The position numbers and the translations under genes were made by a program. Of a DNA stretch of 64,000 nt, positions 18,421 to 62,900 are shown piece after piece. The notes beneath the pieces were generated by a model. The model did not search any database. It saw nothing but the letters and a program-made list of their open reading frames with translations, and had not been told where the DNA came from. This DNA comes from Pocillopora damicornis (taxonomy: Eukaryota): positions 248,001 to 312,000 of the forward strand of contig NW_020845097.1 in the NCBI RefSeq assembly GCF_003704095.1, in the 5' to 3' direction. Position 1 is the stretch's first letter; the number at the start of each line of letters is the position of its first letter.

Positions 18421-21400
18421 TTACCTCCTTGCACTGCGCAAATGTTGATGGATACGCAAAGCAACCTCTGGAAGCTGCACCTCTGGGCTCCTTAGGGTGT
18501 CCATAAGGTCAATAATTGTGAATTCCGGGTGTGTCGCTTTGATTGTTTCCAACAGTTGTCCAGTAGCAGGCTTTTCCATGGACTTTAAGTTTTCCCAGTA
18601 ATTAAGGTTATCCTGATTTACCCCCAGTACCTTGCCCACTTTTTTCCAGCCGTATTGTCCACTGCACGTCACTTCAAGTGTCTTTACGATTATGTCCTCA
18701 AGATCAGGCGATATGTCTGATAAACGAACACCTGCAATTTTTAAGAACATTTTGTCAAGTTAGTGACTAAATATTGCTCATTACGGACTGCGGCTGTGGG
18801 TTCTATAGATTTATGGAGAAGTTGTGGTTTTATAATCACTTTTGCTTTACAAGAAAAACTCGAATTATCACACTTGTTTTCATCGTGTAACAATTTGGTT
18901 TAGTTTATCATAGAATCATTATGAATAAAAGATTAGCACTCTGTTTTGAAATTATGATGACTAACTTTCAAGGTCAGAAGTAGTTGTGTATTCCTTTGAA
19001 AGTGTGCCTTCCAAATTGCCTCTGTTAAGGGTGACTCCTTGATAGAGACCTAAAAAAAAGTACAAAGACAATAAAGATATTTTAAGTAACTCAAACGTTT
19101 TACTTTCGCTTTCCTTGGACCCTCGCAATGGAACTTAACTAGTGCCATCTATTGTTTGCATTGAGCATGGGTATTTTTTGTGCATAATGTTATGCGTAAT
19201 TGGTGCCTACACGTATGGCTTTTCCTGTTAGACCAGAGCCGGCCATACGAACTTGTTGTGATTTGTGCTTGTCTGTGTAGTAGTTTTGGTCCTGGTTGAA
19301 TGAATGGCCTAATCTCGTTCAGTACAGATGAAAATAGTGATCACAGTCATTACTACGTAGAGATGAAGACATCATTCGCGCTTAACGTGTTGCTACTTTT
19401 GAATGAACATGAAGACCTTTTTTCTGATAAAAAACCGTTGAGTTCAACTAAAGTCTCACGAATGACCTCTGATTGTTGAAAATCATCAATCGCCGTAATT
19501 AACTATTGATATCTAACTACTACGTACCCTTTACGTGCTAATTGTACCCCCTCATGTTAGACACTGACTACTCCTCTTGTTTTGATTCTTCCATACATCT
19601 TTTCCTGGTAATATTCTCATAATTACTGAGGTAAAGTTAACCAAATGTTTCTAATACACCATGGGAAATTAGAGTATTCTGATCAAAGATATGAATGCCG
19701 GCGTTTCTTAAAGTTTACTTGTAGTAGTGTAATTTTTAACTATTCTTCTTTCGTTCCAATATCTAAGCCCCGTTGTATGTCGTTTTGTTTATCAAGTTTA
19801 CTTTCTTACCGGTTTGATATGTATTATCTCCCAAAAGCGACTTGTATTCTTCTGCACTTGTCGGATTTATCTTTATACAACAAATCACTTCACACCTACT
19901 TTGCCTTTTACAACAGAAGCATGCTATCATCACGCTCACTGAAATCAGCGCCAAAATAAGTATGGCTACAAGTACAGTTAGAGTTTTCACAAGTGTTGTG
20001 AAGTTTATTCCAAAGTAATTTGAAGCGGTTTGAAGTTTTGTCTCCGTAACATTCATTTCTTTGGAAGTGGTTCCAAAGCTCTCGTTTGAATGTTTGGCGT
20101 TAGCTACTGCAGTGCGCGAAATGCTTGGAAGCGAAGGGGTTTGTTCGGTAGCCATTTCATTTCCACTTCTTTCCAGGGCTTGTTGAACCTCTCGTGTAAC
20201 CCTCGTTCTTTTTAACATCTCCTGTACATTAAATGCCGATTTTGATGGGTTTTCTGAAGTGTTACTGCTACGGACATTTTGAATTGGCCCTGAGTTTGAG
20301 GGTGTCTTTCTCTTGGGAGTGTTAAGCCTCGGGGGATATAAAATCAACATTTGAGGATCGCTTCCCTTGGTTTTTATTTCTAGGGTGCAGTTTGTTCTTA
20401 AACATTGCCCTAGATTAATACACTCCAATGTAGCAAGGCGTTTCGTCCCGCAACACTTAAAACATTTTTTGCAAACATTTTCTGTCTTATTCCAAGGATA
20501 CGTTCCACGAGGGCAGGGTCCACATCGTGCATTTTTCCAAGCTAAACATGGACTGATGGTTTGTTTCGGACTACATTTCTGGCATGGGAGACAAATGCCT
20601 CGGCCTTGGCTATCCTTGTAGGCATTCGACGGGCATACTGTGCAAGCTATCACGGCGTTTTGCTGTATTTTGCTACCACATGGTGGAGTAAGTTGTCGCC
20701 CTGGGGGACAATCAGAGCAAGGTTGGCATCTGATTGTCGTATTCTGTTTACCAAGAATTTGGTATGATAACGCTGGGCATGTTCTATCTGGATAGCTGTT
20801 AGCTTGGGGAAGGTTCCAAAGAGTCCAAACCTGTTTAAGTGGATAGTAAGAGGTGAACATACGGCCAGACATTGCACTCTGTCCATTAGATATGACTCAC
20901 TTCTGAAATGGATGCAGTCGAACCTGTATTAAGCGGTCATTCACGGAGAATGGCGGGGTAATGGCGGAACCGCTTAATAAAGGGTTGACTGCCAAATACA
21001 GGTTCCACAGAATAGCATAGGGGTCCAACGCCATAAAAACCGCCATTTTGTAGTAATAGTCACAAGAGGAAAGATTATGTTTATTGCGCTGAGACATCTA
21101 CAATCAAAAGTGTCAAATTGATTTCGGGATATAAACATTGTACAAATTCGAATCGAGAGATTATTCTTAGTTTTATTTAAGTGGTTTTGGATTAAGTGAC
21201 CATTGGGTAAAAGTAAATGACAACGCAAACAGGCCATGGGGGACCACGACCACTTAATAGAGGCGGCGTCGACAAAATCGATCTGTGAAAGTGACTACAT
21301 GGAGTTTTGGGGCGGAAAACTTTCAAATGGGCCTGCCCTCCATTATGTCTCGCAGACTCTATTTTGGCTTGTTACATAGCATCTCTAATTTTTATTGAAT

Positions 21401-25172: not shown

Positions 25173-28100
25173 TTAGTTCCTCGGCACACGGTGCCGAATT
25201 ATCGTGTCGGCAACATTTCCAAGTTTTACTTTAGGTCTGTTGAGTACAGCAATAAGATCCGATATAGTCTTTCCTTGACTTCCCAATTTCTCAAGTAATC
25301 GTTTAGTTGGGCTTTCATCTTTAAGAGTTCCTAAGTGTTCATAGTATTTGAATTCTGTAGGAGGAATTCCAACCGCGTTTGCTACTATCTGCCAACCGAA
25401 TGTCCTGCTATGATGTACAGACTGTACGTCACCCTGTGGAACATCCAGACGCATCACCAGTTCATCCAGGAGGTCTGGGGGCATATCTGCTAGATTGAGA
25501 TCTAAGGTAGAATCGATTTCAATTCTTTAGTATTGTTTCTGTCATGTTTTGGTGTCTTGTTTCAAATATAGAGTTGGAGTGAATTTTTAAAATCTATGAT
25601 TTTTCAGAGATGATAATGTTCATGAAAAAACTTCACGCTTCTGATTGGCTGAAAGCGAGTGCAAATGTTGTAACACGAGTGCAAATTACAAATAGCGCGA
25701 GCTGTCAAAATTTTGTCTGTCTTGATTTATTGTGATGCTTTGTTCATGTAAATTACATGAAAGCCTGGTTCGCACCAATGAAAGAAAGACAAAACGACAA
25801 AAGCGTTATGAAAAGGCAAGGTCATTCCTTCGCTATCTTCTAGTGTGAAAAAGTAGAAATAACCACATCGGTACAACATAGTGATAGTATGTCAGGAATA
25901 TTGATATGAAGACATAATCAATTAATATCAACCTAACTAGCAACCTAGTCATAATGACATAATGAGAAAATTGATTTTTCCTCGGTGCCTTTGTGTCGTG
26001 TGTGTTGATCAGATACAACCGATCTTGGTTTCCTTACCCTGTGACACTGTAACAGTGCTTGCTTCGTTGAGGGTCTCATCGGTAGTTTCTCCTTCTGCAC
26101 TGTCCAAGGTGAAACCTAAGTAGTAATCATGAAAATATAATAATATATTTCGAGAGGAAAACTATTTAGAGAACTTACTTTGAACAAGCAGCTAAGAAAT
26201 AAAGCTCACTAGGAACGATATGACAACGGCGTGGCATAGTTGCAATTTTCTCAGTTTGACGTAGATCTCGATAGATAGTGGTATCGACTTAGTTGCTATT
26301 AATATATTCTTATGTTCTGACCCATTATTCTTCTTACCTGTACTTTGAGGTTCTGTGGAGTCTGATGACGTTCTTTTTAACTCCTTCGGGTCTTGTAGCA
26401 TCTTGCAGACACACTTTTTGTATAAGGTATACAAGAGAAGTCCCATAAGTACCAGAAAAACAGCGGCTAAAATTGTTCCGGCAAAGCTGCCGAGGGCCGA
26501 GTTCAGGAATTCATTTTGCGCAGCGTCATCGTGTGGTGTTACCTCTCCCAACTCTGTTACTTCTTTTAGTGGAGTCTCAGTTGTTTGAAAAGTGATGTAA
26601 TTTTTTCCAAGTGACGCTTGAGAAGAAACCTGCTCTTCCACTTCAATCGCAGGAATTTTGGTCCCGTTGAATCTCCTTTTCGGTGTTAAAAGATGGTTTG
26701 AATTTTTACTTTGGTCCGTTATTGGCTGCTCAACCTCCTCCTCCTTTATGTTTTTAATGGGAGGAATCCTAAGAAAATCTAATTCTTCTTCTAGTTCATC
26801 CCAGTAGGAATTTTTTCCCGTTTGGCTGTCCCTGTTGTTCAAAGACTGATCACTTTTTGATTCAACTTCGGCCTCCAAGTCTCGTTTTACTATAGTCAAT
26901 GAAACATTTTTGTCGTTGGAGTCCAATTGGTCAAATTGGCTCATATTTTTCATACGACTTTGCTTCAGTGACATAGTGGGTTCTTTCGTTAACGCTTCGT
27001 TGTTCATAGCATTCGTAGATCTTGCAATCTTTTTATTCAAATATTTCCTTGTTTTTGTCGACCGTGCGCAACTTTCTCTACATTTTTTCGATATCAAGCA
27101 TTCTATTTGAGCCGCATAACTTTTTGGACAACAACCAGAGCAAGGTTTGCATCCGTGTGTTTTTTCATCTTCGTAGTGTCTCTTTGGACAGTCTTGACAT
27201 TCTGTGTTTTTCTCTGTGGTGCAAGAGCTAATGATGTTTCTTGATTCACAATCACTGCATATCTTGCAGGACCTACTGTCGACTTTGTCTGAATATGTTC
27301 CTGGTTTGCAAGGTATGCATTCACCAGCAGGTTTTGTATCCAATGTAATACCACACGGTGCTGAAGGTTCCTTCCCAGGAGGGCATACAGGGCAAGCGAA
27401 ACATTTGATCCTTCCGCTTTCATCTTCATGAACAGTGTAAGTCTCTGGGGGACATTTAGTAAGACCGTCTGGGTAAAATTCACTGCTGTCTTGCAAATCC
27501 TCTAAAAAATTCCATAGCTGTACAATCAATAAGGAAAGAGAAAGTGTCACAATTGTTTTTGGAATATTCAGCTCTATTGCCTTATTTGTCGAACTATCAC
27601 TTATACAACATACAATAAGAATAATTGTTTGAATATAATTACTTGGAAGATCAACAAGGCTACTACATTTTAATTTACTTTCTTTAAGAAAAAGCAACAG
27701 ATCGTGCTTCGGCTAGTTAAAAAAAATTGTGCTTCGAGATAACTAGATAAATAGACAGTTTATTAAAATATTCAAATTACTAGCCTCCTAGGGCTGAATT
27801 GCATGAAATTTACTAAAAAGTTAAAGTTATGTACACATTTATAAAATAAACAATTTTATGTGCTATAAAACGATTATAGAAGAAACTACGTATAAAAGTT
27901 TTACCGATTGGACATGAATGTGTTCGTGTAACCATTAGAGTGCATTTTTGGCAACCTAAATTGCGATGGTTTTTAAAATTGTATCGATCTGGTAATGCTT
28001 TTGGGTAGTAACAGATGATGGAGTTTATGTGCAGTATTAGATACGACTGAGAGTCAAAGAGTTTATAACACCGTTCTTTCCGCCTGTCTCATTCAAACAT

Positions 28101-34151: not shown

Positions 34152-37100
34152 TCATTTTACTTCATTTTGTAAATGTAGACGGATGCGTTGAACAAAATCT
34201 CGACGTTTTACGTCTGGGCTCTCTAGGATATCTATAAGGTCAGCAATGGTGAATTCTGGACGTGTCGCTCTCAGTTTTCTTAACAGTTCTCCTGTAGCTG
34301 GACTTTCCATTGACTTTCCGTTTTCCCAGTAATCCAGATCGTCCTGGTCAATCTGTAATGCCTTTCCCACTTTTTTCCAACCACAGTCCACTTCAAGTTT
34401 CTTAACGAGGATGTCTTCAAGAAAGGGGGATATGTCACTTAAGGGTGTATCTGGAATTTAGGTACATATAGGTGATTGAAGTGAGATAAGATTATTAATA
34501 CTGTATCACTAGAACTTTTCATCTTGTCTTTTTTCATTAAGAAATCTTTTGATTGAAAAAGAACCTCTCTTTTAGAGTTACTCACTTTCAAGGCCAGCAG
34601 CAGATGTGCTTTTCTCAGAAAAGCTGCCTTCCAAATTGCCATTGATTAGAGAGACTTGTGTGTCGTCACCTAAAAAAAAATGAAAAGAGACAGTGGCGAG
34701 ATCCTACACAAAAGAAAAAAATATAATAAATTTTAGGTAGCTTGACTCTCATTAGTTTGACACTCCTTAATATTGCATCGTACATTTTTGTCATTTTCTT
34801 TTTTTAACCCTACCAACATCATATGTACTTACAAAACTAAGTTTATTTGCTGATTACAGAAAAAAACTTACAGAAAAATTTCTTACAAGCCAGAGACTAA
34901 TCAAAGTGCAAACACTGCATGAATACAGAGAAAGTAGGATGCTTAGAACCCAAAATGAATGGCCTCTTCTCTATGAAGCAAGTACATAAATTGTGAAAAT
35001 ACTGTGGCTGTGATTCTTACAGTTAAGTTATCCGAGGGTAATAAATGGCCATGGACCCCAAGAAATGAGATTGGCGGTTTATTTTGATCAAGGACGTGTC
35101 AAATTTGCTGGGGTTGTTTGATAAGTAGAATCATTTTTCAGGCAATGAGTCTCAACAGTTCAAAGATCTTTGCCTTTAGTTTATACATAGATTTTCTGGT
35201 AGAGACTTTTTTCTTACCGATTTGATGAGTTGTTTCATCCAGTAGCTGTTTATATTCTTCGGTACTCTTCAGATTTATACAACAATTAAACACACAATAT
35301 CTAGGCTGAAGATGTCTTGACTGCCTTTTACAACAGAAGTATACTATGACGCAAACTGTGAACAGCGCCAAAATAGATATGGCCACAATAACGATTATTA
35401 TAATCTTCACTAGTTTTGCGAAGTTCATTCCAAAACAGCTTGAAGCCATTTGCAAATTGGAATCGACAGTGTTGAAGTCAGTGGAGACAGTTCCAAATTC
35501 CTCGAATGATTTGGTGATGGTGGTTATAACAGTATCTGAATTATTGCTGAGAAGAGTGGCGATTTTTTCGTTTGCCAGTTTAGTGGTATTTCCTTCACTG
35601 ACTCCTTGCAGGACCTGCGGAACATCTCGTGTTACTCTCGTTCTTTTCAAAATGTTCTTCAATGCCAATTTCTTTGCGTTGCCTGAATTTTTACTGCTAG
35701 AAACACCTAGAAGTGGCGCTGGGTTTGGAGGATTTATTATCGTCGCAAACCTTTGAGAATTTATCTCCAATTTTTGAATATCATTTCCCTCATTTTCTAT
35801 TTCTTGAGTGCAGTTTGTTCTTAAGCATTGCCTGAGATAAAAGCACTCCACCTCAGCAAAGCGCTTCGGCGCACAACACGACGAACACTGTTTACAAGTG
35901 TCCACTGTGGGGCTCCATTGGAAGGTACCACGAGGACAGGTCCCACATTGTGCATTTTTGCTCGATGTACATGAGCTAACGGTTACTCTTGGACCGCATG
36001 TCAGACACAGTTTACAAATACCTCTTCCGCTAATGTCTTTAAAGGTTCCCGAGGGGCAAACGGTACAATTTATTAATGCATCTGGCTGTACTTTGCTGCC
36101 ACATGGTGGGGTAAGTTGTTGTCCTGGGGGACAGTCTGGGCATTCTTTGCATCCGGTTATCGAATTATGTCCTCCAAGAATCTGGTATGATGATCTTGTG
36201 CATGTTTCGCTTGGGTTGTCGTTAGTTTGGGGTATGTTCTAAATAGTATACAGCTGTTTCTGAGAAGCAAAATAAAATATTAAGTAATGCAAGCACCCTT
36301 TCATCAATTAAATGAACCTTTCCATCGGTGTTATCTACGGTGATCGGAATTCGTTATATAAGTTTCGCAATATAATCAGGTGACTCTGAGAATGTTTATT
36401 GGCTTTACCAAATAGGGTAGTTCGCGTGACTACCACTGGTTAAGAACATTGAGCGAATTGCAGTTCCTTCACAAATCCCTAATTGCTGCTGCTTTTGAAT
36501 TGCTCTACGAGTTCAAAGTTTTCCTTATGATGAGTTGTACGTTATCGCATATTCTACCGAGAGTGCTCGCATATGAATACTGCCATTTCACGTCAGCATA
36601 CCTTTAGCATTTAGATGCTAGAGGCGATTTGTTTTGCTGTAGTTGGCCTTAAAATCAGGTAACAAACCTGACACAAAGGTCTCTATAATTCATTGAGACC
36701 GGCCGCAAACGAAATTAATATAATTTAGAGAGCGAAATCAGACCACAAGTTGTCAAGTAGCGGCGAGTAAATCTTAATAATTCTCTTAGGAACCGTGCTT
36801 GGAATCAAATATATCTAGATAAAAAGTGGCGTTATACTTGAAGTTACTTGACTGCATGTAATTGCTTTCTAGACTTAAATTAATTTCGTACATTAGTTTT
36901 CTAGTTCTTCTGCTTACTTTATTCAAACATATAGTCAAAGAAAAACAATTGAACTGACACTTACAAAGCAAATTATGAATGTAACAAAGATGATCCAAAT
37001 AAATCTAAGGATCTTTGTACGCTCATGAACAGACAGCTCCATGGCTTCTCTTATCAAATAAGCGAGGGAATCTGTAAACTCCATCCTAATTGAACTTGTG

Positions 37101-39912: not shown

Positions 39913-42802
39913 TTATGCATGCTGGGAATTACTGACTGCTTGAATGAATTGAATGACGCGAGACGCGACATCGGGGCGGTTTACTTTATGACTCTTCAAT
40001 ACATTGATGAGGTCGGATATTGTCGCACATTTAGAAGTTCCAAGTTTCAATAACAGCTTGCTGGTTGGACTTCCGTTTTCTCTTTTGTATTCAATCTTTA
40101 GGTGACGGAGTTCATCTCTGCAGATCTCAAACGCAGCACCCACTTTTTGCCAACCATAGCGATGTTCACCTTTGCGTCGCACGTCCAGTTTCTCTACCAG
40201 TAAGACTTCAAGATCTGGAGGTAGCTCGGACAAAATGAGACCTGAAAAATTGAAGAATTTTGTCATAGTTGAAACTCGGATTTCCTCGGCAACCTGAAAT
40301 CGTTTGAAGTCAACAGCAAGAGGCATTAAATCTGGCTAATATTTGGTAAATGGCCCAGATATGTATTCTTGTGAATTTCAACGAATGACGTACTGTACTG
40401 ATTCGATACAACGCTTCGTTCCAATAAGCGCTGTCTCTCTATGAGGGGCTCCATCGAATTTGCTCTTTTTTAAAAAAGCCCGAATACCAATGAGCGGCCT
40501 CATTCCAATTAGCACTCCTATTCGGATAAGTGTCCCTATTCTGTTTCAGTAATATCACTGTTCGAGTACCATTACATTACATAAAGGGGCTCATTTTCCT
40601 CTAATGTCCTCATTGCAAAGACAGTGGTCTTCCTCACAGTCTCTCTATTATGCTCACGTGAGTGCACAGTTCCTTCAAGCAAATGACCTCGTCTTCATAT
40701 TTTGCAGCGATTATTATTATTTTGCTTGGCTGGTCGATCTGCCTAGGAAGAATCAGGAGCAAGTCCATTTTCCAGTCTTCCTGATCCTTTTGGGTAGACA
40801 TCAAAGCTTTGTTTCGCGCATACTGCTGTATTTCAAAAAAGAAATAAGCGCCCTGTCTCTAACAAGCGCCCTGTTCTGAATAGGGGCCCTCCCTTAAGGT
40901 ACCATAAGTCAATAAGCGCCCAGGCGCTAAATCAAATCAATACGGTAGTAATGGGGTATATTTATAACGCAGATGCAGCCTCTCACCTTTAAGATCATCA
41001 GGAGAGGTAGACAGGTCGGTTGAATTCTTTACGTTTAAATGATCAGCATCGTCAGAGGAGTACGACATTTCTATGAAAACAGATGAACAAGGTAAACGAG
41101 TTAGATGAAATAATACGCAAAGTTGACGCTCTATGTGAAAAGATATTTAAATGATTTCGGGTGCAATTTAGAACCAATAAGCACGATTATTTATTAATGT
41201 ACACAGATTGATTTTGTGACCGAAGAAAGATGTGTATAAAACGAAAAAGGACACAAGATTTATGGGTATTTTTTTTAAGCAAACACGATGCGGAATTAAG
41301 TTCCTAAAAAATAATTACAATACACATAATGATTTTTCGCCCACCTTCAATTGACTCTGCGCTCTTTAATCTCTGATAGTCTCGGCAATCCTTATTCCAA
41401 ATAATGTGTCTGATACTATTCAGAAGCCACACCACAAATCCAAGCAATACGGAAATTATGACAAGCACAACAACCACCACAACTTCGACCGACGGAAAAC
41501 CACCCAGCACATAAGTAATGTTTATAATCTGAGATCCCCAGGTGGCGTTAGATGTTTTTCCATGCAACCCTTCTATGTATGGTGTTGTGAAATGTTTTGG
41601 CCTTTTCGATTGCTGTATCAACGGTCGTCGTGGTCTACTTAATAGTAATGACTGGTTGTCATATTTCTTCTCCCAACGCTTAACCGTATACGGAAGGGAA
41701 TGTGCTCTAGATGGAACCGTCGTCGTGCGTGGTATATCCGGTGTAGACCTTTTATGTGAAAAAAAATGCTCATCCAGTTTTGATGAGTTTGAGTTATCAA
41801 GCCTCTCCGTCTTATAGATATCGTTCACCTCCAAAGGAGACCAGGTGAAAACTTTTCCATTTCGGATGCTGAGATGGTTGGTTCCTTTGCCATTTGAAAG
41901 GTATGTAAGTTTAATCCCCTCCGTAGGCAAATGAGTTTTCCTTGGTATCCTCTCAGTGGCGTGAATTGAAATTGGCACACACATCACAATGGTATCGAGA
42001 GTCACTGTTCTGCCACATGGCGGAGTAAGCTTCATGCCTGTACCACAGGGATGACAGGGCTGACATTTAATGATAGTACTGTCATTGCCGATCAACTTGT
42101 AATTTCCTGGTAAACAGGTGTTATTAGTTCCTGCGATATGGTCTAGCCGCCACCACCACCATTGCAACAATACCTGGCTCTGTAAACGGATGGATGAACA
42201 AACAATTATAGTATTTTCCATTCGACTGACTATCACAAGTGTTCGCATTTGGCTCCTAAAGTGTTTTACAATACAGGTTACACTGAAGATGAAACCAACG
42301 GCGAAATTACAGGTAGTTCAGGCATCTGAGCAATGATCATTTGCATGCTAAATGTTTGTATCTAAGTGTAAATAAAGACGTGGATAACCTGTTCCAACCA
42401 AGTTTAACCTCAATACCTCAATAAGACTATCAGGGTAAAGGAACGATGTCTTATCCAGCAATGACCCCCCTTCCCCTTCCTTAAGTCAGGAGGAGTACTT
42501 ATCAAATGAATCAGTTCTTAGAATGATGTCATGTGTAAGAGTAACTATAGGTGCATTTTGGGTAATCAACATCATCGAATTGCGCATGACCCCAAACTGT
42601 GGAAACAACCGAAAAAAAATGGCCCCAATGGCCCCAATGCCGCTACAAAAAAAATGCAATAACAAGCACTTCCACTGAACACTCCACAATTAGATTTTAG
42701 AAGTATTTATTAAATATTTATAGTTGTGGGAGACTGACTTACCAATATCAGCACTACCACGGCAAACAAGAGAAGCACAGCTTTCCATCCTGGAATCGCC
42801 AT
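39913..42802 (-). CDS. TNFR-D: single-CRD TNF receptor-like protein with long stalk, TM and death domain (433 aa)
   Basis: Exons 42743-42802 (MAIPGWKAVLLLFAVVVLIL), 41345-42173, 40987-41070, 39913-40241; 1302 nt in frame. One CRD CLPG...CQPCHPCGTGMKLTPPCG...C; DD LDV...GWQKVGAAFEI...SPTSKLL. Confidence 0.8.
40391..40947. mobile_element. TA-flanked DNA-transposon MITE with AATAAGCGCC subterminal repeats in a TNFR-D intron
   Basis: TACTGTACTGATT...AATCAATACGGTA ends; multiple AATAAGCGC units. Confidence 0.6.
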
Positions 42803-48811: not shown

Positions 48812-50398
48812 CTTTTTTAGGTGTTGTGTCACATGTAACAGGCTCAAATCCTTCATAATTGCGATTTATGTATTGTGCACAACAGGTCATCGTAATACCA
48901 GTTTTCTGAGGTTTACAGCATATTATTATGAACAAACCAACGGAAGTAAGTGCAATAATTCCAAGTATCACTGCAAGTGAAATTAACACAGCTATCAAGT
49001 GTTTAATGGTTTCATTAAGGTAGCTTACAGCCATCAGCAACGTTGGCTCTACAGCATTCCCACTGGGAAGAGTTCCAAATCCCTTCTGTGGTCCAGTGGT
49101 GGTGTTGTGGGTACTGCTTGAGATGATTTGAGTTGAATGTATTTCTTCCTTGGCCACATTTGAAGTAGATTCTACATTTTCTCTTTGTATGGCCTGCAGC
49201 ACCTCTGTTGTAACTCTTGTTCTCGTTAACTTGGATACTATGACCTGTAAACCCTGTTTTTTTAGTTGGTCTGAGTTGTTACCTGAAGAAAGGTCATGGA
49301 GTGGCATTGGCACAGGAGGTGTCACTCTTTTAGGCATTCGCACACTTTGAGAATTTGAAGCATCTACTTGTTGAGGGTTGCGTTCCCCACTTTCCATTTC
49401 TTTGGTGCAGTTTTTTCTCAAGCATCGCCTCAGATAAAAGCATTCCACCTCAGCAAAGCGTTTTATTGCACAGCAAGTTGAGCATTTTTTACAAGAGTCA
49501 ACTGTGTAGCCCCATTGGTAGGTTCCACGAGGACAGCCTCCGCAGTGTGCATTTGTCTCTGATGTACATGGGCTAGTGGTCTCTCTCGGGTGACATGTCC
49601 TGCAGGCTTTACATGCTGCACTACCATGTCTCTCTTTAAAACTTTGGGATGGACATGTCGTACAGGTTATTGAGGCAGCATTTTGCTGTAATTTACTGCC
49701 ACATGGTGGAGTTAGTTGGTGACCTGGGGCACAGTCTGGGCAAAGCTGACATCCGATTGTCGTATTTTGGTGACCAAGAATAGTGTATGATGAAGTTGGA
49801 CATGTTCCATCAGGATTGTTATTAGCTTGGGGCAATTCCGGTAGAATAAACAACTGTGCGAGAAGAAAATGAGATGTTAAAGCACTTGCATAGCCTGTAT
49901 ACAGCCATCCCCTTCCCCAAATTTTAACTTTGGGGAGGGGGTCTGGCTGTACATTGGCTACTACTGAAATATTAAGGGAGTTCATTTGTTATCTGCAATC
50001 TACCCTGCACTCCCCTCGTAACTTATCCCAAAAATGGCTGCAATCTAAATTCGTTAATTTATCCGTGCATTTTGAAAAATCAGTGAAAATTTCAGGCCCA
50101 AATCTCTTAGAACTGCCTTAGAATCGCCATGTGAATCGTTATTCTCCCCTATAGTCACACTTGGATCACCTAGTACATACAAATATTTGTCCACTAAGAC
50201 CTTTCGGCCCAAAACCCCTGTTTACACGCTCGCGTACTCGCTAGAAGCACGTGATTATTAGATTCAAACAACAAAGTTAAAACCCAGGTATAAATATGGG
50301 TGTTTTTGGGCACCAAACCATACAGATAGCGAAATCAGAAGTCGCTAGAAAGTCACTAAATCAAACTTAAATAATGTCAAGAAAATGGCGATTTAAAT

Positions 50399-50455
<57 letters not shown>

Positions 50456-51486
50456 CTAACTGCAGACAGTACTGTTTCAGCCTTCTGGGCCTCATCAGTG
50501 CAGTGCTGATGCTAGGATGGAGGTAAGGCTATATAGCCACCCCAAGTGATCTCACACATGTGGTATCATCTAAGCCATGCCAGAGTGCTCAAACTAGAAA
50601 ACCTAGTGAGCATGCATAATATATATATATATAGGATAAAAATTTCAGTGATGGCGTGACACCAAAAACTACGCATGTGATAATAGGAATACAATTAAAA
50701 CTTTCAAGTTCTGCGCTTAATGTTCTTGGAAATTGTAACTCATCACTTACATTGCAATTGATTAGAGTGAGGAAGATGGCTGAGATGATTAGCAGAATTA
50801 TTTTCTGGATCCTAGTCGGCCAGAGACTAGATAGTGTCTTTCTAATCACATTTGCAGGATCTCCTTTGAGGTCTATCTTTCTTGAACATAAAGGGAGTAC
50901 CGAAGCCTGTAATCAGAAAAGAACGAAATTGCTTAAAAAATTCGGAAATATGCAATTTACTTTATCTTAACTACCTATACCTTTTCTAAACGGGTAAACT
51001 GCGAAGTAACTGTGATCCGTATTTGATCCTCTATTTCGAGCTGTTAATCTTTAGGAAAAAATTTTATCCCCTTGTTTTTCGAGAAATCTTCCATGTATGT
51101 AAGTAATACAAGGTATAATGTCGTATCAATATTATTATTAGTGAATGACTGACAAAACACGTAAACTCGAACTGTAATTTCATTGATCATGATGTTCCTA
51201 TGTTTGCACAGCATTGAGAATAGTATACAAATTCTTATCCTCGATGTTCGTTCAAGTCTTAAAATAGTATTATTTCATCCTGTCATTTAAAAGTTGATTT
51301 GAGCCCTTTCCAGTTATTTTTCAAACGGGCGTTTTAGATAACCTAAATGGTTAGTCATCGGCAATAGGTACCTAAAATCGAGATACATCGTAGAGTCGTC
51401 GATAAACAGTATAAGTGACGTCCAAATCTTCTAGTTTAGCCACCTAAGCTTTCATCGTAGATTAATACCTTATGATGTCTTCCCAT
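48812..51486 (-). CDS. TNFR-E: paralog of TNFR-A/C, 5' part only (ectodomain and TM); downstream exons missing, in gaps or inverted
   Basis: Exons 51469-51486 (MGRHHK), 50751-50906, 48812-49853, ending AAG|GCAAGT. CRDs CQLCPDCAPGHQLTPPCG; TM LIAVLISLAVILGIIALTSVGLFIII. Confidence 0.78.
50401..50454. repeat. (TA)n microsatellite
   Basis: About 27 TA units. Confidence 0.95.
50459..50504 (-). ncRNA. Type I hammerhead ribozyme (minimal, Penelope/retrozyme-like) in a roughly 170-bp insert flanked by TA repeats
   Basis: Minus strand ACUGCA-CUGAUGA-GGCC(CAGAA)GGCU-GAA-ACAG(UA)CUGU-C^UGCAGU: stems I, II, III, the complete catalytic core and a GUC cleavage triplet. Confidence 0.82.
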
Positions 51487-51574
51487 CTTTGTTGTGTACT
51501 GAAAATGATCCCGGATTCTCTATGAAAACTAGAAAGGTTTCCTGAGATACATTCACCGAGTGCTTCGACAGAAA

Positions 51575-51671
51575 GGAATCGAAACTAGAGCCAGTTCCTC
51601 GAAACTGACCTGGCCTGGGCCGAAGTGAAGTGAAAATCTACTTATTACTTGGGCTTCCTGTGGAAAACCCC
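51575..51671. promoter_or_regulatory. IRF-like (GGAATCGAAACT, GAAGTGAAGTGAAA) and kB (GGAAAACCCC) motifs upstream of TNFR-E
   Basis: About 90-185 nt upstream of ATG 51486; the IRF-like motif matches the TNFR-A position. Confidence 0.45.
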
Positions 51672-54051
51672 ACATTTAAAATTCGGTCGTTTACATCTGC
51701 GCAGGCCCAGGTTTTCAGGCTCCTAGGAAGGATTTGTGGTTACTTGGCAAAACCCAAAATTGATTTTTTATGTTCTTGAAAATTTGATATCATTTCTCCT
51801 TGAAATGCGGTGTTTGATAGGACAATGATATCAATTGTTTTTATCAAAACTTGCGTCTCGCGGTACGTCGCTCATTAAAATTTGCGTTGCAACGCGACGT
51901 TTGCAGAGTGTTCGCCTACTTGCAATTAAAAAAGAACCTCTTAATCTTCTGTCTCGAAACGACAAACCTCGGAGATATTTTATTTTTGTAAAAAAAAAGC
52001 TTTCAAATATCCACAGAATCAGTTACTTACAAGATCATAGTGCCGTTACTCGTTACTGCGTTACTTTGTTTAAAAACACCCACATCACAGAGGGAAGTCC
52101 AAGGGAAGGCCACTGTGGCCTCTTGTTTATCTATTATTTACTGTTTCTATTTGTCTTTTATTTTTGATGGACGTGAAATACAGAAAACAATACATTTGTT
52201 CGGATGGTTTGTCACGCAAACTAAGGCTACTAGTTGAAATATATAATTAATATTATCATTGCCATTTTCTTTATCATTATCATTGTAAACGTTATTGTCA
52301 TTATCGTTTCAATAATCAACAATCCTCTTTTAATTTCGGTTTATTCTTGTCTCTTGAGTGATTGTTTACTTTGAAAATTTTGTCATCTCAAGTACATTCT
52401 GTGCTAATCAGTGGTGTGAGAAAAAAAGGTAAAAGGAGGCCCTTTAAGATTCTTGGGTGTCATATTACTTTGACGATTAGTGTCCCCTTATTGCTAGCGA
52501 ATGACCGGTTTTCATACAATGGTATTCTTAATATTACAAGTATTAAACGAAATTTATACTCTGATGTAGCTCATTATATCATTCACTGAAAGCATCTCTG
52601 AGACCCAATTACTTTGGGCTCCAAGGTCATCTTGCCGAAAGATTTCAGTGTCCTTTGACTGCTTTCTATGTTTTGCGGTTAAGTATTGTTGACGAGATAC
52701 CTCATTCTTCTTAACCTGCTGCGAGGAACATATAAGACCTCTACTTAAACAATTTCGCATCTATTTTACCAGTTTAAACTCAAAACTTGTACAGTTGTAA
52801 TCCTGGGAATAAGATAAATATATAAATATAATGTTTGTGTTTCATGCTTTTAATTAAATTTGATGTAATTTTTTCCTTCAAGTGACTAGAGACAACCCGA
52901 ACAAACACCACTTTCTTATCAAGCAAGAAAGAATTAGAAAGAATAGGATACAGTCCTGCAATTTCCCTGAATTAATCTTCATGAATATGAAATAGGTTAA
53001 TGAACGAGCCTTGTATACTCTAAGGATTTCAATTTTAACAAGGCAAACCACAAATCTGCCGGTTCTTCGGGAGACCTTCTTTTAACTTGATGATAATCCT
53101 TTTAAATCCCCTTTGATANNNNNNNNNNNNNNNNNNNNNNNNNNNNNNNNNNNNNNNNNNNNNNNNNNNNNNNNNNNNNNNNNNNNNNNNNNNNNNNNNN
53201 NNNNNNNNNNNNNNNNNNNNNNNNNNNNNNNNNNNNNNNNNNNNNNNNNNNNNNNNNNNNNNNNNNNNNNNNNNNNNNNNNNNNNNNNNNNNNNNNNNNN
53301 NNNNNNNNNNNNNNNNNNNNNNNNNNNNNNNNNNNNNNNNNNNNNNNNNNNNNNNNNNNNNNNNNNNNNNNNNNNNNNNNNNNNNNNNNNNNNNNNNNNN
53401 NNNNNNNNNNNNNNNNNNNNNNNNNNNNNNNNNNNNNNNNNNNNNNNNNNNNNNNNNNNNNNNNNNNNNNNNNNNNNNNNNNNNNNNNNNNNNNNNNNNN
53501 NNAAAAAAAAGATGATGAAGAGAAGCTCTCCTTTTGCAGCCGTTTCTCTGACAACCGCAACCGTCGCTTGGTGCTCGCCACTAATGAATGAGAGCCTTTT
53601 TTTACGAAGAACTTCCCTTGTGGTCATGGAGACTCACAGCTTCTTTGCAATTACGCTTGCCTGTCACTACAATTGTTATGTTAAGGAGATCTTCACTTAC
53701 GGGATTATCACATAAACTGTTCTAATAAGCGGATTGACATCAAGTTCATGATGAAGGAAAAAAGTATAGTAGACATTACGATTTCGACGTATCTTTATTG
53801 CATCTTGAGTTTGACAGCCAAAAATGAGGGTTTCGTGGTTTTAAGGAAAAAGATGGTCTGAAAATCAAATGATAGATAGAACGTTCCGCGTTGGCAATTA
53901 GGGCCACCTTTTCAGTAACTATTCAGTTGACAAGAAGAACAGGTGGCATGTGAATGTTCACTCTCATAGGAAACGAAGTCGTACATGAAGCATATGTTTG
54001 GTTAGAGGTGTTACGCTCCACTCCGAGTTGTCGCGTTTTTTTGTTTTTAAC

Positions 54052-54912
54052 ATGAGCGATTGGTACTGGATGACAGCCTGGCTGCCTTCATTACTAGCTG
54101 TTCTTGGAAATGGTCTCGTTATTTATTTGGTTCTCTCACGTCCAAGACTTCGCTCCATACAGAACAGGTTCACCTTGTCGCTTGCCATAGCTGACTTTTG
54201 TGTTGGAGTTTGTTATTATCCAGGGCACGCAGTATGCCAATTTTTACTCAACTCGTGTAATAAGGTTATCAGAGATGACATTGCAGTGTTCATGATCTAT
54301 TCATCTGTATCGAACCTGTGCGCTATGGCTTTGGACCGGTACATCGCTATAGTCCGACCTTTGCACTACAGGTCCCTATTGACCACTAAACGCGCAAAAC
54401 TATTGGCCGCAGTAGCGTGGATGATTCCGTTGATAGTCTACTTGATTCCTTCTGTTTGTGCCAGCTTTGGCTTATTTCACATCAACTTCAAAATAAGTGT
54501 AGTTATTTGGACCACGATCTTCGAATTTTTTCCTTGCACGGCACTTTTTTTGACTACATTGCAAGTAATCGTGATCTCGAGGAGACATTGTCGCAGAGAT
54601 TCACAACGAAGTTTGAAATGGCGTCGAAATACATGTTCGGCTTCAGTGATAGGAACAGTTGTGACAGTTTTTCTTCTTTGCTATGCCGTGGAGGTTTACA
54701 GTTCGTTTTGTTATTTCACGTCGATATGCCAGCGAGATGAGCATATATATAACGTAGTGCGCTTTCTCGTGATAATTAACTCGGCAGCGAATCCTGTCGC
54801 TTATGCGTTTTTGAAGAGAGACATGAGAAGAGAACTCGATTTGATCATCAGCAAGAGATCTTTTATCAAAACAAGGTCAAGACGCAGTAATGAACGATCG
54901 TCTGGTATTTGA
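54052..54912 (+). CDS. Intronless class A (rhodopsin-like) GPCR, 286 aa
   Basis: GN in TM1, SLAIAD in TM2, DRY, W in TM4, NSAANPVAY in TM7; starts MSDWYW, matching the paralog start. Confidence 0.9.
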   Translation: MSDWYWMTAWLPSLLAVLGNGLVIYLVLSRPRLRSIQNRFTLSLAIADFCVGVCYYPGHAVCQFLLNSCNKVIRDDIAVFMIYSSVSNLCAMALDRYIAIVRPLHYRSLLTTKRAKLLAAVAWMIPLIVYLIPSVCASFGLFHINFKISVVIWTTIFEFFPCTALFLTTLQVIVISRRHCRRDSQRSLKWRRNTCSASVIGTVVTVFLLCYAVEVYSSFCYFTSICQRDEHIYNVVRFLVIINSAANPVAYAFLKRDMRRELDLIISKRSFIKTRSRRSNERSSGI

Positions 54913-59081: not shown

Positions 59082-59951
59082 TCAAAGACTGGTCGATCTT
59101 TCATTACTACGTCTCGACAAAAGGCTTGGTTTCGTGAAAGAGTTTTTGCAGATAAATTTATCAAGTTCTCTCTTCATGTCTCTCTTGAACAACGCATAAG
59201 CGATAGGATTTGCAGCCGAATTAACAATAATGAGAAAACGCACTGCGTTGTATATGTTATCATGTGGAGTACACAATGATGTAAAATGACAAAACGAGCT
59301 GTAAACCTCTACAGCATAGCAAAGAAGAAAAATAGCCACAACTGATCCAATCACTGATGTCGAAGCTTTTTGTCGAAGCGTTAACTGAGAGAAGTTTGCG
59401 TCTCTTCGGCGATGCCTCTTCGAGATAATGATAACCTGCATGGTAGCGAACAACAACAACGTGCACGGAATAAATTCGAAAATCGTGGTCCAGATTACCA
59501 CACTTATCTTAAAGTTTATGCTAAACAATTTCAAGCTGACACAAATGGCGGGAATAAAGTAGACTACCATCGGAATCATCCATGCTATTGTCGTCAGTAT
59601 TTTTGCGCGTGTAGTCGTCATGAGTGTTAAGTAGCGTAAAGGTCTGACAATGGCGATGTACCTGTCGATAGCCATGGCGCACAGATTGGACACAGAAGAG
59701 TAGATCATGTACACAGCAATGTCATCTCTAATCATCACATTGCACTTTGAGTCGAGCAAAAAGTTGCATATTACATGCCCTGGGTAATAACATGTCCCAA
59801 CACAGAAGTCAGCTATTGCAAGCGACAGAACAAATCTGTTTTGTAAGGTGCGCAGTCTAGGACGTGAACGAATCAAATAAATCACGAGGCCATTTCCAAT
59901 AATAGCTAATAATGAAGGCAACCATGCCGTCAACCAGTACCAATTACTCAT
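59082..59951 (-). CDS. Intronless class A GPCR, 289 aa, paralog of 54052-54912
   Basis: GNGLVIYLI, SLAIADF, DRY, NSAANPIAY; collinear high similarity to its neighbour. Confidence 0.9.
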   Translation of the reverse strand: MSNWYWLTAWLPSLLAIIGNGLVIYLIRSRPRLRTLQNRFVLSLAIADFCVGTCYYPGHVICNFLLDSKCNVMIRDDIAVYMIYSSVSNLCAMAIDRYIAIVRPLRYLTLMTTTRAKILTTIAWMIPMVVYFIPAICVSLKLFSINFKISVVIWTTIFEFIPCTLLLFATMQVIIISKRHRRRDANFSQLTLRQKASTSVIGSVVAIFLLCYAVEVYSSFCHFTSLCTPHDNIYNAVRFLIIVNSAANPIAYALFKRDMKRELDKFICKNSFTKPSLLSRRSNERSTSL

Positions 59952-62900
59952 GTTGCAACAGCTATCCCTTAAAGAAAAAAACGAAAGTAAAAATTTAGTT
60001 ATTTTGATTGACTTATTTTACTGTTAGAATACCTTCGATAAGCTCTCAATTGCGTCGAGCCGTAATTATACAAAAGCATCTTAAATACAGAGAAAAATTA
60101 GCATAAGGTTGTTGAGGTTTTGTCATTTGAAATCCGAGTCGATTTTTCCATCCTCATCTGTTACTTTTCCTATTCATCATCTTTTTCGAAATTGGTTTTA
60201 CTATCTTTCCCATCATGTCTATGTTCTATAGTTTTCGCTTACTGTTTGCCACTTTAAGGGTGCATCAAATGAGGCGAAAAAGAGTCTATAGAAAAAGAGG
60301 ATACATCCCAGAGATCAAGATTACCCACCTGTTTGGCAGAAAAGAAGAATAACTTTAGGTTTTTAAGCTTTTTCGCCCAATTCGTACTTCACTGGAGTTA
60401 AATTTGCGGATTAGCGTGACTTATTAGTCTCTAATTCGACCTACAAAAAAAGAAAGTATATCGTGGTAAACAGTATATCATCGTTCTTGAATGCACGACA
60501 AGATACCGGAGTTTAGCTCTTTACTATTTCCGCTGCTTCCGACAGACAAGAAACATATTTCATTCCTTTCAGACAATTAAGTATTTTCCTCTGATTTATA
60601 TTGGACCTGAATGGAGAGAAGACAATGATGTTTTAAATCGCTATTGTAAACATTGCCAATTTTAATCAATTTTGCCTTTTATATTTCACAGTTCTTTCAA
60701 AAGGTGAATATTGCATGCAGATTTCCTATACTACTTTTCATTGAAAAAAGTTCTGGTAGCTGTGTCATTTTTTTACAATTTTCTGACGTTTTTCTAAGGG
60801 CTATGGGTAATTAAAGGTTCTTATTATGGCAGCAAGAAATCTTGAAATCGTAGATTTGGTGATAACTACCACATTTTACTGAAGACGGGAAGATAATTTC
60901 TAGCGAGCGTTTTTTTTTTCTGCCATACAAAATCATTTCCCTTTTCTCTGTATGTTACGTACAGGGTCATTCTATCGAAATTAAACCTGCTATGAAGTCA
61001 AATCCTACGCAGTGCTTGTTATCTTGAAGGAAATTAACTTTTGATTTGAATTAATGGAGCGCAATTGTAGCCAAGGAACTGTAGCACCTTGTGGTACGTA
61101 GTAACTGCTCAAAAGATCATCCAAATTAGTAAATGTAGATGTAATAAATTCACTATGGTTGCATGTATTTCTGAACTGAAAATCAGTCTGCAATCATTTG
61201 CATAATGCAAACCGGATAGTGGTTGTCTTATGAAAGTGTTAATGATACTCAAGGTCATCGCGTTCATCTGTTTCTCAAGCGAACTCTGGGTAACCTTTCT
61301 GTCACTACCTAAGATTTATTTATTTTTTTCTTGTTTAAAACTTCAGGAAAAATTGTTGCAGGAGACTAACGTAATCATAGAACTCTTTTGACACGCTTTT
61401 CCAAACGATCGTTTTCCTCTTGTTTCACAATTTAATGAAATGGAACTCGAAAAAATGAATGTTTTGAATTTTCGGCTCTGCTGAAAAGAACGTCTACGTA
61501 CTTCACCATGTCAAGAAACGACTGAGCCACGCCATCGATTAGCCAAACTGCCATTGGGATTGAAAGCTTTGTTGTGTCGCCCTCAAAACGCATGAGATGA
61601 AAACTTGTCTGAAATTAATCTTTATAAAATAGCCAAAATACTGTTATAAGTAGGCATATTTTAAATTATTTGTTCCTGTGTTTAAAGCGAACAGAACATG
61701 GAAAACCACAATTAAGTTCATCATTTGAAGATTCCTTCGCTTATTCGTAAAATTTTTTTCTAATTTATGTCTTTAAACACACTTTTGCGAAAAGCAATCG
61801 TGGGCAAGCCACGGAGACACCTTTTGGTCACCATACTTAAAGCTTTTCCCATTGTTATTATAAATGCTTACCAACACTTTAACCGATCGTTTAACTCATG
61901 TTCTGGTGCCGAGAAAGCATTAACACCTTCTGCCGTCCTTTGGAGAACTGAACTAAATTGACTTAACATCTATTAAATTGTAATGGCTAAGTAAATTGTA
62001 TTGAGTTTTGTCCGTAATTTGATTATTGTCAATTTGATTATTGTACTACAAACATGGATTCTTTATGCATATTGTTACTCGAATTTTTCATTGACATTTA
62101 CTCCGTCTCAATGTTGGGAGATCCTAAGAAATAAACAAACAAGACAAATTTCTTTAGTCGTTAAAAATGAGAACTGTTTTCCTTTTGTTGTTCTTTTACA
62201 GGGCATTTAATCTGACAGAATTTTGAATCAAATGATAGATAGCTGTCAATCGAATGATGCCAGTAATCCCATAAAGAAAAAAAATTAGGCAAGTCTTAAT
62301 TGTGAGCATTAATCACTGAGGTTGTCATCATTTAAAAGAAATTAAAAAACATGATTTTCGTTTTAATATTCATCATTGAGAAGCCGTCGCTACCTAGTCA
62401 GCCATAAAAACCCCGCTTCTTCGAGAGAAGTCGAGGTCTGTCTTATTATAGAACGTATAAGAAGGGAAGAACAACTCACCATTTACATCTATTGATATCA
62501 AAGACAAGGATGTTTCCAAATCGGACAACAGTCAGATCGCTTGCCCGATCGTGGTTCTGCGTTACTGATTACCCGGTAAGCAAGTACTCGCAATCGAAAG
62601 TGGTTGTGGTTTTCGCTGCATTTCAATGCTTAGGATGATTACCGTGGCCTTGGTGGTTAGCAGATGTTATTACATCAACCAAATGATGGAAGCTAATTGT
62701 TGATATTTTCCAGTTTTTGTTTTGTGCCTCCATAAGTTTGTTCAGCACACAATAAAAGCACTTCTCTGGGAGAATGATTTGATACTAATTGTAGCTAAAC
62801 TGTTCAAAGCTCAAAAAGCAAATTGCCTCAGGCAGTACTGCATTGAAAGAGTTTAATTAGTGAACAAAACAATAAAACACGAGCAAACAACATTTTACGG

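What the first reader, a model, noticed from the sequence alone, without database searches (positions are those of the whole stretch)
50455..50632. Intact hammerhead ribozyme in sense orientation inside a TNFR intron
Seen: a roughly 170-bp insert between two TA tracts in TNFR-E intron 2 carries a full type I hammerhead on the transcribed strand (CUGAUGA, GAAA, GUC^, 6-bp stem I, palindromic ACAGUACUGU stem III). Established: such minimal hammerheads mark Penelope-like elements and retrozymes, and often cleave as dimers. Inference: it could cut the pre-mRNA and dampen or truncate this receptor's expression, and it may be a polymorphic insertion.
Basis: partly seen in the sequence, partly recalled or inferred. 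Interest (0 to 1): 0.7.

Follow-up and report, generated by a model that had tools for sequence, protein, structure and literature searches.

The report
Truncated retrozyme copy in TNFR intron
This is a cut-short copy of a common coral jumping repeat (a retrozyme) whose self-cutting RNA motif lies on the transcribed strand of a normally spliced intron of an immune-receptor gene; it is likely a recent, harmless passenger that some colonies probably lack, and its ends suggest which transposon enzyme would have copied it.

Summary
The hammerhead is real (minus strand 50504-50459, cut site 50465/50464) and lies sense in TNFR intron 2: RNA contigs join exon 1 to 2 (4 of 4 runs) and exon 2 to 3 (3 of 4). 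It is canonical, not 'minimal', and not quite intact: only this copy of 52 has a G-U in place of the conserved G10.1-C11.1 pair. The insert is the last ~166 nt of a 244-nt non-coding unit with at least 42 dispersed matches, nearly all ending at the hammerhead in TA tracts: a non-LTR retrozyme of the kind described in Acropora. One of four DNA runs probably lacks it. Family copies near genes are not depleted in sense orientation (8 sense, 5 antisense), so a neutral passenger is most likely; mild allele-specific dampening is untested. The unit carries twice a bulged hairpin that also follows the 3' ends of Hydra-type Penelope elements of this genome, next to its fixed 3' end and its 5'-end hot spot; this points to Hydra as the copying enzyme. 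The scan has reported TA-targeted retrozymes and the Hydra hairpin before, on other genomes. New member of a known kind.

The parts
50455..50620 (-). 5'-truncated retrozyme copy: positions about +88 to +253 counted from the cut site of the 244-nt unit, ending TTAGT into the TA tract
   Evidence: 98% identical to the full-length copy in L003
50459..50504 (-). canonical type I hammerhead: stem I 50504-50499/50464-50459, CUGAUGA 50498-50492, stem II 50491-50479, GAAA, palindromic stem III 50475-50466, C17 at 50465
50479..50479 (-). private U11.1 (family C), making G10.1-U11.1
   Evidence: 33 of 34 exact cores have C; 50 of 51 other copies C, 1 gap
50506..50511 (-). CAUCAG, complementary to the core CUGAUG; predicted competing hairpin, present family-wide
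50585..50612 (-). bulged hairpin UGCUC-stem-UU-GAGCAC (second of two in the unit), shared with the tails of Hydra-type Penelope elements
50401..50454 (.). (TA)27 tract at the element's 3' end (target microsatellite)
50620..50633 (.). (TA)7 tract at the element's 5' end
49854..50750 (-). TNFR intron 2 (897 nt, GT..AG) holding the insert
50751..50906 (-). TNFR exon 2 (ends in a predicted signal-peptide-like hydrophobic stretch)
51469..51574 (-). TNFR exon 1 (coding from 51486, MGRHHK)
   Evidence: joint in 4 of 4 RNA runs; paralogue MGKHHK at 22984
48812..49853 (-). TNFR exon 3 (cysteine-rich domains, stalk, hydrophobic segment); 3' boundary predicted only
   Evidence: Pfam TNFR_c6 E 5.9e-05, below the curated cut-off; its 5' letters are the loose end of exon 2 in 3 RNA runs

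Best explanation
The insert is a 5'-truncated copy of a 244-nt non-LTR retrozyme lying in a TA microsatellite of TNFR intron 2; it was likely pasted there recently by a Hydra-type Penelope reverse transcriptase/endonuclease and is likely a neutral passenger for the receptor. Shown: family membership, fixed 3' end beside (TA)n, sense position in a spliced intron, private G-U at 10.1-11.1, and the hairpin shared with Hydra tails. Inferred: arrays elsewhere are transcribed, self-cut and circularised. The Hydra enzyme would bind the bulged hairpin, nick a TA tract and start copying just 5' of hairpin 1, 9-10 nt after the cut site. That start needs a circular or uncut multimeric template, because a cut linear monomer would give only about 9 nt. 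Copying would often stop near hairpin 2 (+88 to +95), which yields exactly this fragment. Any cutting of the pre-mRNA is inferred to be too slow or too rare to stop splicing.
For: 42 matches at 89-100% (lower bound, 40 of 82 candidates scored). Unit length 244 nt, 45% GC, longest ATG ORF 44 aa. 46 of 52 distinct copies have a TA-type tract 8-24 nt after the cut site, and 35 of 51 have one at the 5' end. 5' ends: 13 of 52 at or before +9, 13 of 52 at +88..+95, some upstream of the cut site (also -8 and -7). The cut-site-to-unit-start junction occurs in RNA (X15) and DNA contigs (X1). Hydra-type elements with 3' hammerheads and TA ends are abundant (151 matches); they match Hydra-1_Amil by eye and carry the CxCX5C linker. 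Bulged hairpin: 19 of 21 distinct instances have an upper stem of 3 bp or more, against 5.7% in shuffles, in about six unrelated stem sequences. Splicing. Empty site: X9 record 32 leaves at 50619, the first base where a TA tract and the element differ, with 1,833 letters not on the element. Orientation survey: 8 sense, 5 antisense. Literature: coral retrozymes of 220-245 nt (PMC7229834, Results and Discussion read); Hydra targets (TA)n (PMC8557442, section 11); internal priming at a stem-loop by a Penelope RT (PMC11167929, parts 1-2 of 4); introns cut by a hammerhead can still be spliced (as reported in PMC2995048, passages).
Against: No cleavage, circle or expression-by-genotype data. The genotype at the insertion is unknown for all four RNA samples, so the spliced mRNA could come from empty alleles. 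The letters beyond X9's exit were not shown, and X11 was uninformative. Long tandem arrays were not seen in the assembly: one 1.5-unit copy, and six unit starts run into gaps. No intact Hydra ORF was seen, and apart from the hairpin there is no nucleotide homology to Hydra (best 12-mers, E 0.8). The 21 hairpin instances are not independent. No copies ending at +88..+95 were found among 29 matches to the unit's first 86 nt, so hairpin 2 is not shown to be a second start site. The orientation survey is small, intron status is mostly not verified, and 298 of 404 candidate frames were scanned. A related coral hammerhead cuts at ~0.8 per min as a monomer (PMC7229834), and a fast engineered intronic hammerhead cut mRNA 13.6- to 20-fold in zebrafish (PMC11856399, passages), so an effect is possible. 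Xenopus retrozymes are under-represented in introns (bioRxiv 2026.07.22.740005).
Confidence: 0.72

Rival explanations
1. The same insertion, but it cuts a measurable share of TNFR pre-mRNA in cis and lowers expression from the filled allele (an accidental expression variant of an immune receptor).
For: Sense orientation and a complete catalytic core. G-U still pairs, and even U10.1-U11.1 hammerheads can cut (PMC3088659, passage). The related Acropora ribozyme is fast as a monomer (PMC7229834). Intronic knock-down by a fast ribozyme is documented (PMC11856399).
Against: The cut site is only 611 nt before the 3' splice site. The active fold is 2.6 kcal/mol weaker than the family's and is predicted to lose to alternative folds by 5.5-9 kcal/mol at 37 C (family 4.6-8.2; two-dimensional model, no tertiary contacts). 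Spliced mRNA is present. Sense copies are not depleted.
Confidence: 0.18
2. Abundant free retrozyme RNA pairs with the intronic copy through the palindromic stem III as a double hammerhead and cuts the pre-mRNA in trans, using the partner's wild-type core.
For: The 46-nt heterodimer is predicted to form the double-hammerhead fold (-35.6 against -27.8 kcal/mol for two monomers). The unit is present in RNA contigs of 3 of 4 runs.
Against: With about 70 nt of natural context the predicted duplex is not the double hammerhead. Pre-mRNA is short-lived. RNA contig depth cannot rank expression.
Confidence: 0.05
3. The insert is a solo end (pLTR remnant) of an autonomous Penelope element rather than of an independently amplifying retrozyme.
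For: Truncated Penelope ends with hammerheads in TA tracts are common in this genome.
Against: Full-length copies close on themselves at 244 nt with the unit's own end upstream. No RT or endonuclease frame was seen next to 20 loci with variant or partial cores. The Hydra 3' ends have different hammerheads and sequence.
Confidence: 0.04
4. A domesticated, conserved intronic ribozyme that regulates this receptor.
For: Position and orientation only.
Against: 98% identical to dispersed copies, probably absent in one DNA run, absent from the four or more TNFR paralogues in the window (one descriptor hit), and carrying a private change in a conserved pair.
Confidence: 0.01

Closest known systems
Metazoan non-LTR retrozymes, especially the Acropora millepora 220-245-nt family (PMC7229834; bioRxiv 10.64898/2026.07.22.740005)
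   Same: Non-coding unit of 244 nt, GC under 50%, one canonical type I hammerhead per unit, head-to-tail junction, present in RNA, many dispersed monomers, coral host (runs labelled coral metagenome hold this DNA).
   Different: Here the assembled copies are mostly single, 5'-truncated and in TA tracts; long arrays were not seen. Sequence identity to the Acropora unit could not be checked because the supplement was unreadable. Cleavage and circles are untested.
Hydra-clade Penelope-like elements (PMC8557442)
   Same: (TA)n targets, 3' hammerhead, variable 5' truncation; the same bulged hairpin directly after the usual 3' end point.
   Different: The insert has no ORF, a different hammerhead, and two hairpins per unit; it works like a Hydra passenger but is not a Hydra element.
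Minimal hammerheads of Penelope pLTRs (PMC4209133)
   Same: Type I topology, palindromic loop III.
   Different: Those have a 7-8-bp stem II, a 4-5-bp stem I, an extra base before 10.1 and hardly any stem III; this one has 4, 6, none and 3 bp.
Conserved intronic ribozymes (HH9/HH10 hammerheads; CPEB3)
   Same: Sense position inside an intron; weak HH9 match.
   Different: Those are single-copy and conserved (from my own knowledge and search listings); this is a young, multi-copy, probably polymorphic insertion.

Membership tests
Metazoan non-LTR retrozyme | type I hammerhead in the unit | tested here: met
   27 of 52 copies have the perfect 46-nt motif
Metazoan non-LTR retrozyme | short (150-450 bp), non-coding, GC under 50% | tested here: met
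   244 nt, 45% GC, longest ATG ORF 44 aa
Metazoan non-LTR retrozyme | occurs as tandem repeats | tested here: inconclusive
   One 1.5-unit copy; junction pattern at 6 places and in DNA and RNA contigs; six unit starts end in assembly gaps; no long array assembled
Metazoan non-LTR retrozyme | multiple genomic copies | tested here: met
   42 matches, 58 core matches at up to 2 mismatches
Metazoan non-LTR retrozyme | self-cleavage | not testable with these tools
   needs in vitro transcription
Metazoan non-LTR retrozyme | expressed as circular RNA | not testable with these tools
   RNA contigs hold the unit and its junction, but the junction also stands in DNA
Minimal pLTR hammerhead | long stem II (7-8 bp), short stem I, extra base before 10.1, no real stem III | tested here: not met
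   against PMC4209133
Hydra-clade Penelope element | RT + GIY-YIG ORF with CxCX5C linker | tested here: not met
   none in the unit or beside 20 variant loci; present in separate elements
Hydra-clade Penelope element | insertion into (TA)n with a 3' hammerhead | tested here: met
   46 of 52 copies
Domesticated intronic ribozyme | fixed and conserved at the orthologous site | tested here: not met
   probable empty site in X9 (indirect); absent from paralogues in the window

The most novel reading that the evidence does not exclude
Coral retrozymes parasitise Hydra-type Penelope enzymes by carrying copies of the Hydra boundary hairpin, which sets where copying of the RNA circle starts and stops; and the resulting polymorphic sense insertions, such as this one in a TNFR intron, act as ribozyme-based expression alleles of immune genes, cut in cis or in trans by the abundant free retrozyme RNA.
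Probability: 0.1. Interest if true: 0.75.

Novelty: new member of a known kind. Interest (0 to 1): 0.32.

Why it matters
As a gene regulator it probably does not matter: it is one of dozens to hundreds of similar insertions. Two things are useful. First, the enzyme that spreads animal retrozymes has been proposed (Penelope-like) but not shown. A hairpin shared with Hydra tails, placed next to the unit's fixed end, names a clade and an RNA element that can be mutated in a reconstituted assay. I found no paper stating this link in searches; subscription journals are not covered and one key supplement was unreadable. Second, a filled/empty polymorphism in a short spliced intron is a ready natural experiment on whether wild retrozyme insertions change host expression.

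Tried and rejected
Rfam at gathering score: nothing. Bare core pattern: chance level. Free folding of the hammerhead region gives no excess stability (z -0.02 to -0.85; circular unit z -1.66, 12 of 200 shuffles as good), so folding energy is not evidence. A search for a second genomic copy of the upstream flank found only this locus, so there is no empty paralogous site in the assembly. A search for an autonomous element sharing this hammerhead found none: 16 loci with variant cores plus 4 more showed no RT/endonuclease frame; the pair 2.8 kb apart on C3729 flanks a pentraxin-like frame, not a Penelope ORF. The idea of a second priming site at hairpin 2 predicts copies ending at about +90; none was seen. 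DNA run X11 breaks at 50642 and says nothing about the insertion. Summed contig depth over the element is 130-630 times the flank's in four DNA runs, but the tool states that this is no copy number; I treat it only as a hint of collapsed arrays. RNA depth was not used to rank expression. One search picked the wrong locus as the window copy and kept duplicates; one search replaces it. No quantitative data on a G10.1-U11.1 hammerhead were found. Fong et al. 2009 could not be read; it and Dye et al. 2006 are cited only as reported in PMC2995048. No earlier scan note on this sequence or genome.

Full report
Observation. The minus strand at 50504-50459 reads as a complete type I hammerhead: stem I of 6 bp, CUGAUGA, stem II of 4 bp with a 5-nt loop, GAAA, a palindromic ACAGUACUGU stem III and GUC with the cut between 50465 and 50464. 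A helix-aware descriptor hits once in the window and in 0 of 200 shuffles; the core letters alone are at chance level. Rfam finds nothing at gathering score and a weak HH9 match, E 0.024.

Host gene. I predicted a minus-strand gene with exon 1 coding from 51486, exon 2 at 50906-50751 and exon 3 from 49853. Exon 3 matches TNFR_c6 (E 5.9e-05, under the curated cut-off), and a paralogue repeats exons 1 and 2 at 22984 and 22398. RNA contigs from four studies join exon 1 to exon 2 in 4 of 4 runs; in 3 of 4 the loose end of exon 2 is the start of exon 3, and the fourth contig ends there. The insert is therefore sense in an 897-nt spliced intron, 285 nt after the donor and 611 nt before the acceptor. 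The insertion genotype of these samples is unknown.

The family. The insert has 42 matches at 89-100% in the genome, a lower bound. Full-length copies show a 244-nt unit that begins with its own end, 45% GC and no ORF over 44 aa. Of 52 distinct copies at 90% identity or more that reach the cut site (three are short matches from sister families; hits under 90% or not reaching the site were dropped), 46 have a TA-type tract 8-24 nt after the cut and 35 of 51 have one at the 5' end. The 3' end is fixed and the 5' end varies: 13 lie at or before +9 and 13 at +88 to +95, where this copy starts. This is the pattern of target-primed retrotransposition (established knowledge), and the unit fits the coral retrozymes of PMC7229834 (Results part 1 and Discussion read; supplement unreadable). 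Tandem organisation is only partly shown: one 1.5-unit copy, the junction at 6 places and in DNA and RNA contigs, and six unit starts that run into gaps.

Is this copy intact? Position 11.1 is U only here: 33 of 34 exact cores have C, as do 50 of 51 aligned copies, one having a gap. G10.1-C11.1 is described as highly conserved (PMC4209133), yet weaker pairs there can still cut (PMC3088659, passage). The active fold loses 2.6 kcal/mol (-8.5 against -11.1). In two-dimensional models both this copy and the family prefer other folds, among them a CAUCAG/CUGAUG hairpin over the core; these models ignore tertiary contacts, so they bound nothing firmly.

Polymorphism. On 50455-51600, contigs of X1 and X8 run from the flank into the element (to 50599 and 50605). 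A 19,133-letter contig of X9, with 5 differences in 982, stops matching at 50619, the first base where a continuing TA tract would differ from the element, and has 1,833 further letters that do not lie on the element. X11 breaks at 50642. So 2 of 4 runs are filled, 1 is probably empty and 1 is uninformative. The letters beyond the exit were not displayed, and X9 may be another lineage.

Effect on the gene. Pfam scans of 298 of 404 candidate frames around 46 copies (frames overlapping the element or redundant ones were left out) gave host-gene domains near 13 copies, setting aside transposon domains. Eight are sense (L081, L082, L083, L090, L097, L098, L108, L120) and five antisense (L042, L095, L103, L107, L109; two of these probably outside the gene). 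L108 has a perfect core between sense exons. There is no sign that sense copies are purged, though the sample is small and introns are unverified. Papers cut both ways: hammerhead-cut introns can still be spliced while fast ribozymes abort splicing (as reported in PMC2995048, passages); an engineered fast hammerhead in an intron lowered mRNA 13.6- to 20-fold (PMC11856399, passages); Xenopus retrozymes avoid introns (bioRxiv 2026.07.22.740005, parts 1 and 3 of 5 and passages). I put neutrality at about 0.72 and measurable dampening in cis or trans at about 0.23.

Who copies it. One family copy sits in an endonuclease fragment with 151 matches in the genome. Among the 20 best loci most show a hammerhead 80-100 nt after the stop and then a TA tract. 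The proteins match Hydra-1_Amil by eye and carry the CxCX5C linker, and Hydra elements target (TA)n (PMC8557442, section 11, passages and supplement look-ups). No intact ORF was seen. Right after their usual 3' end these elements carry, in an optional tail, a hairpin GCUC-stem-UU-GAGCAC. The retrozyme unit carries it twice: from about +11, just after its fixed 3' end, and from about +97, just after the 5'-end hot spot. Upper stems differ in sequence yet pair in 19 of 21 distinct instances, against 5.7% when shuffled (about six independent types). A Penelope RT starts internally at a stem-loop, and the tail marks its start sites (PMC11167929). I infer that a Hydra enzyme primes just 5' of hairpin 1. 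Because that point lies only 9-10 nt after the cut site, the template must be circular or an uncut multimer, which fits the copies that begin upstream of the cut site. A role of hairpin 2 as a second start was not supported. I noted the hairpin before reading two earlier scan notes that describe it for Hydra elements in other genomes; other notes report TA-targeted retrozymes. These are unchecked AI notes and add no independent support.

Verdict. A real hammerhead in an ordinary setting: a young, truncated, probably polymorphic retrozyme insertion in a spliced TNFR intron, most likely without effect on the receptor. New member of a known kind; the modest added value is the testable Hydra-hairpin link and the natural filled/empty pair. 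Interest 0.32.

Noticed in passing
window 19820-20830, 26789-27553, 35321-36280, 41304-42317 (all minus); 39913-40335: Cluster of at least five TNFR-like genes on one strand, with a death-domain exon at 39913-40335.
   Followed up: partly
window 53989-54912 and 59082-60017 (+): Two similar intronless rhodopsin-type GPCR frames; the first matches 7tm_1, E 9.6e-27.
   Followed up: no
window 50396-50400 and 50634-50638: The flanks of the target read ATCC (TA)n GGAT, so the empty site would be a palindrome able to form a cruciform.
   Followed up: no
family 3' ends: Most inserted copies (31 of 52) end TTAG-TTA-TATA while the unit's internal junction reads TTAG-ATA-TAGC. A 3-nt realignment at the start of copying, or a master copy with that end, could explain it.
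   Followed up: partly
L062:1500-1570, L074:1311, L075, L076, L077, L078, L079, L073: Several sister families share nearly the same hammerhead with different upstream sequence; most also end in TA tracts, and some appear as loose ends in RNA contigs.
   Followed up: partly
L019:964-1666; L021:1050-1900; L149: Retrozyme copies lie directly beside or inside Hydra-type fragments in shared TA tracts.
   Followed up: partly
L097 (G000:C1153 near 44800): A sense copy sits a few bases after the donor site of an astacin exon, a better candidate for a splicing effect than the TNFR copy.
   Followed up: no
window 50751: RNA run X20 differs in the last codon of exon 2 (Asn to Tyr inferred from the loose end), and X19 has T>G at 50860; usable markers for allele-specific expression.
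   Followed up: no
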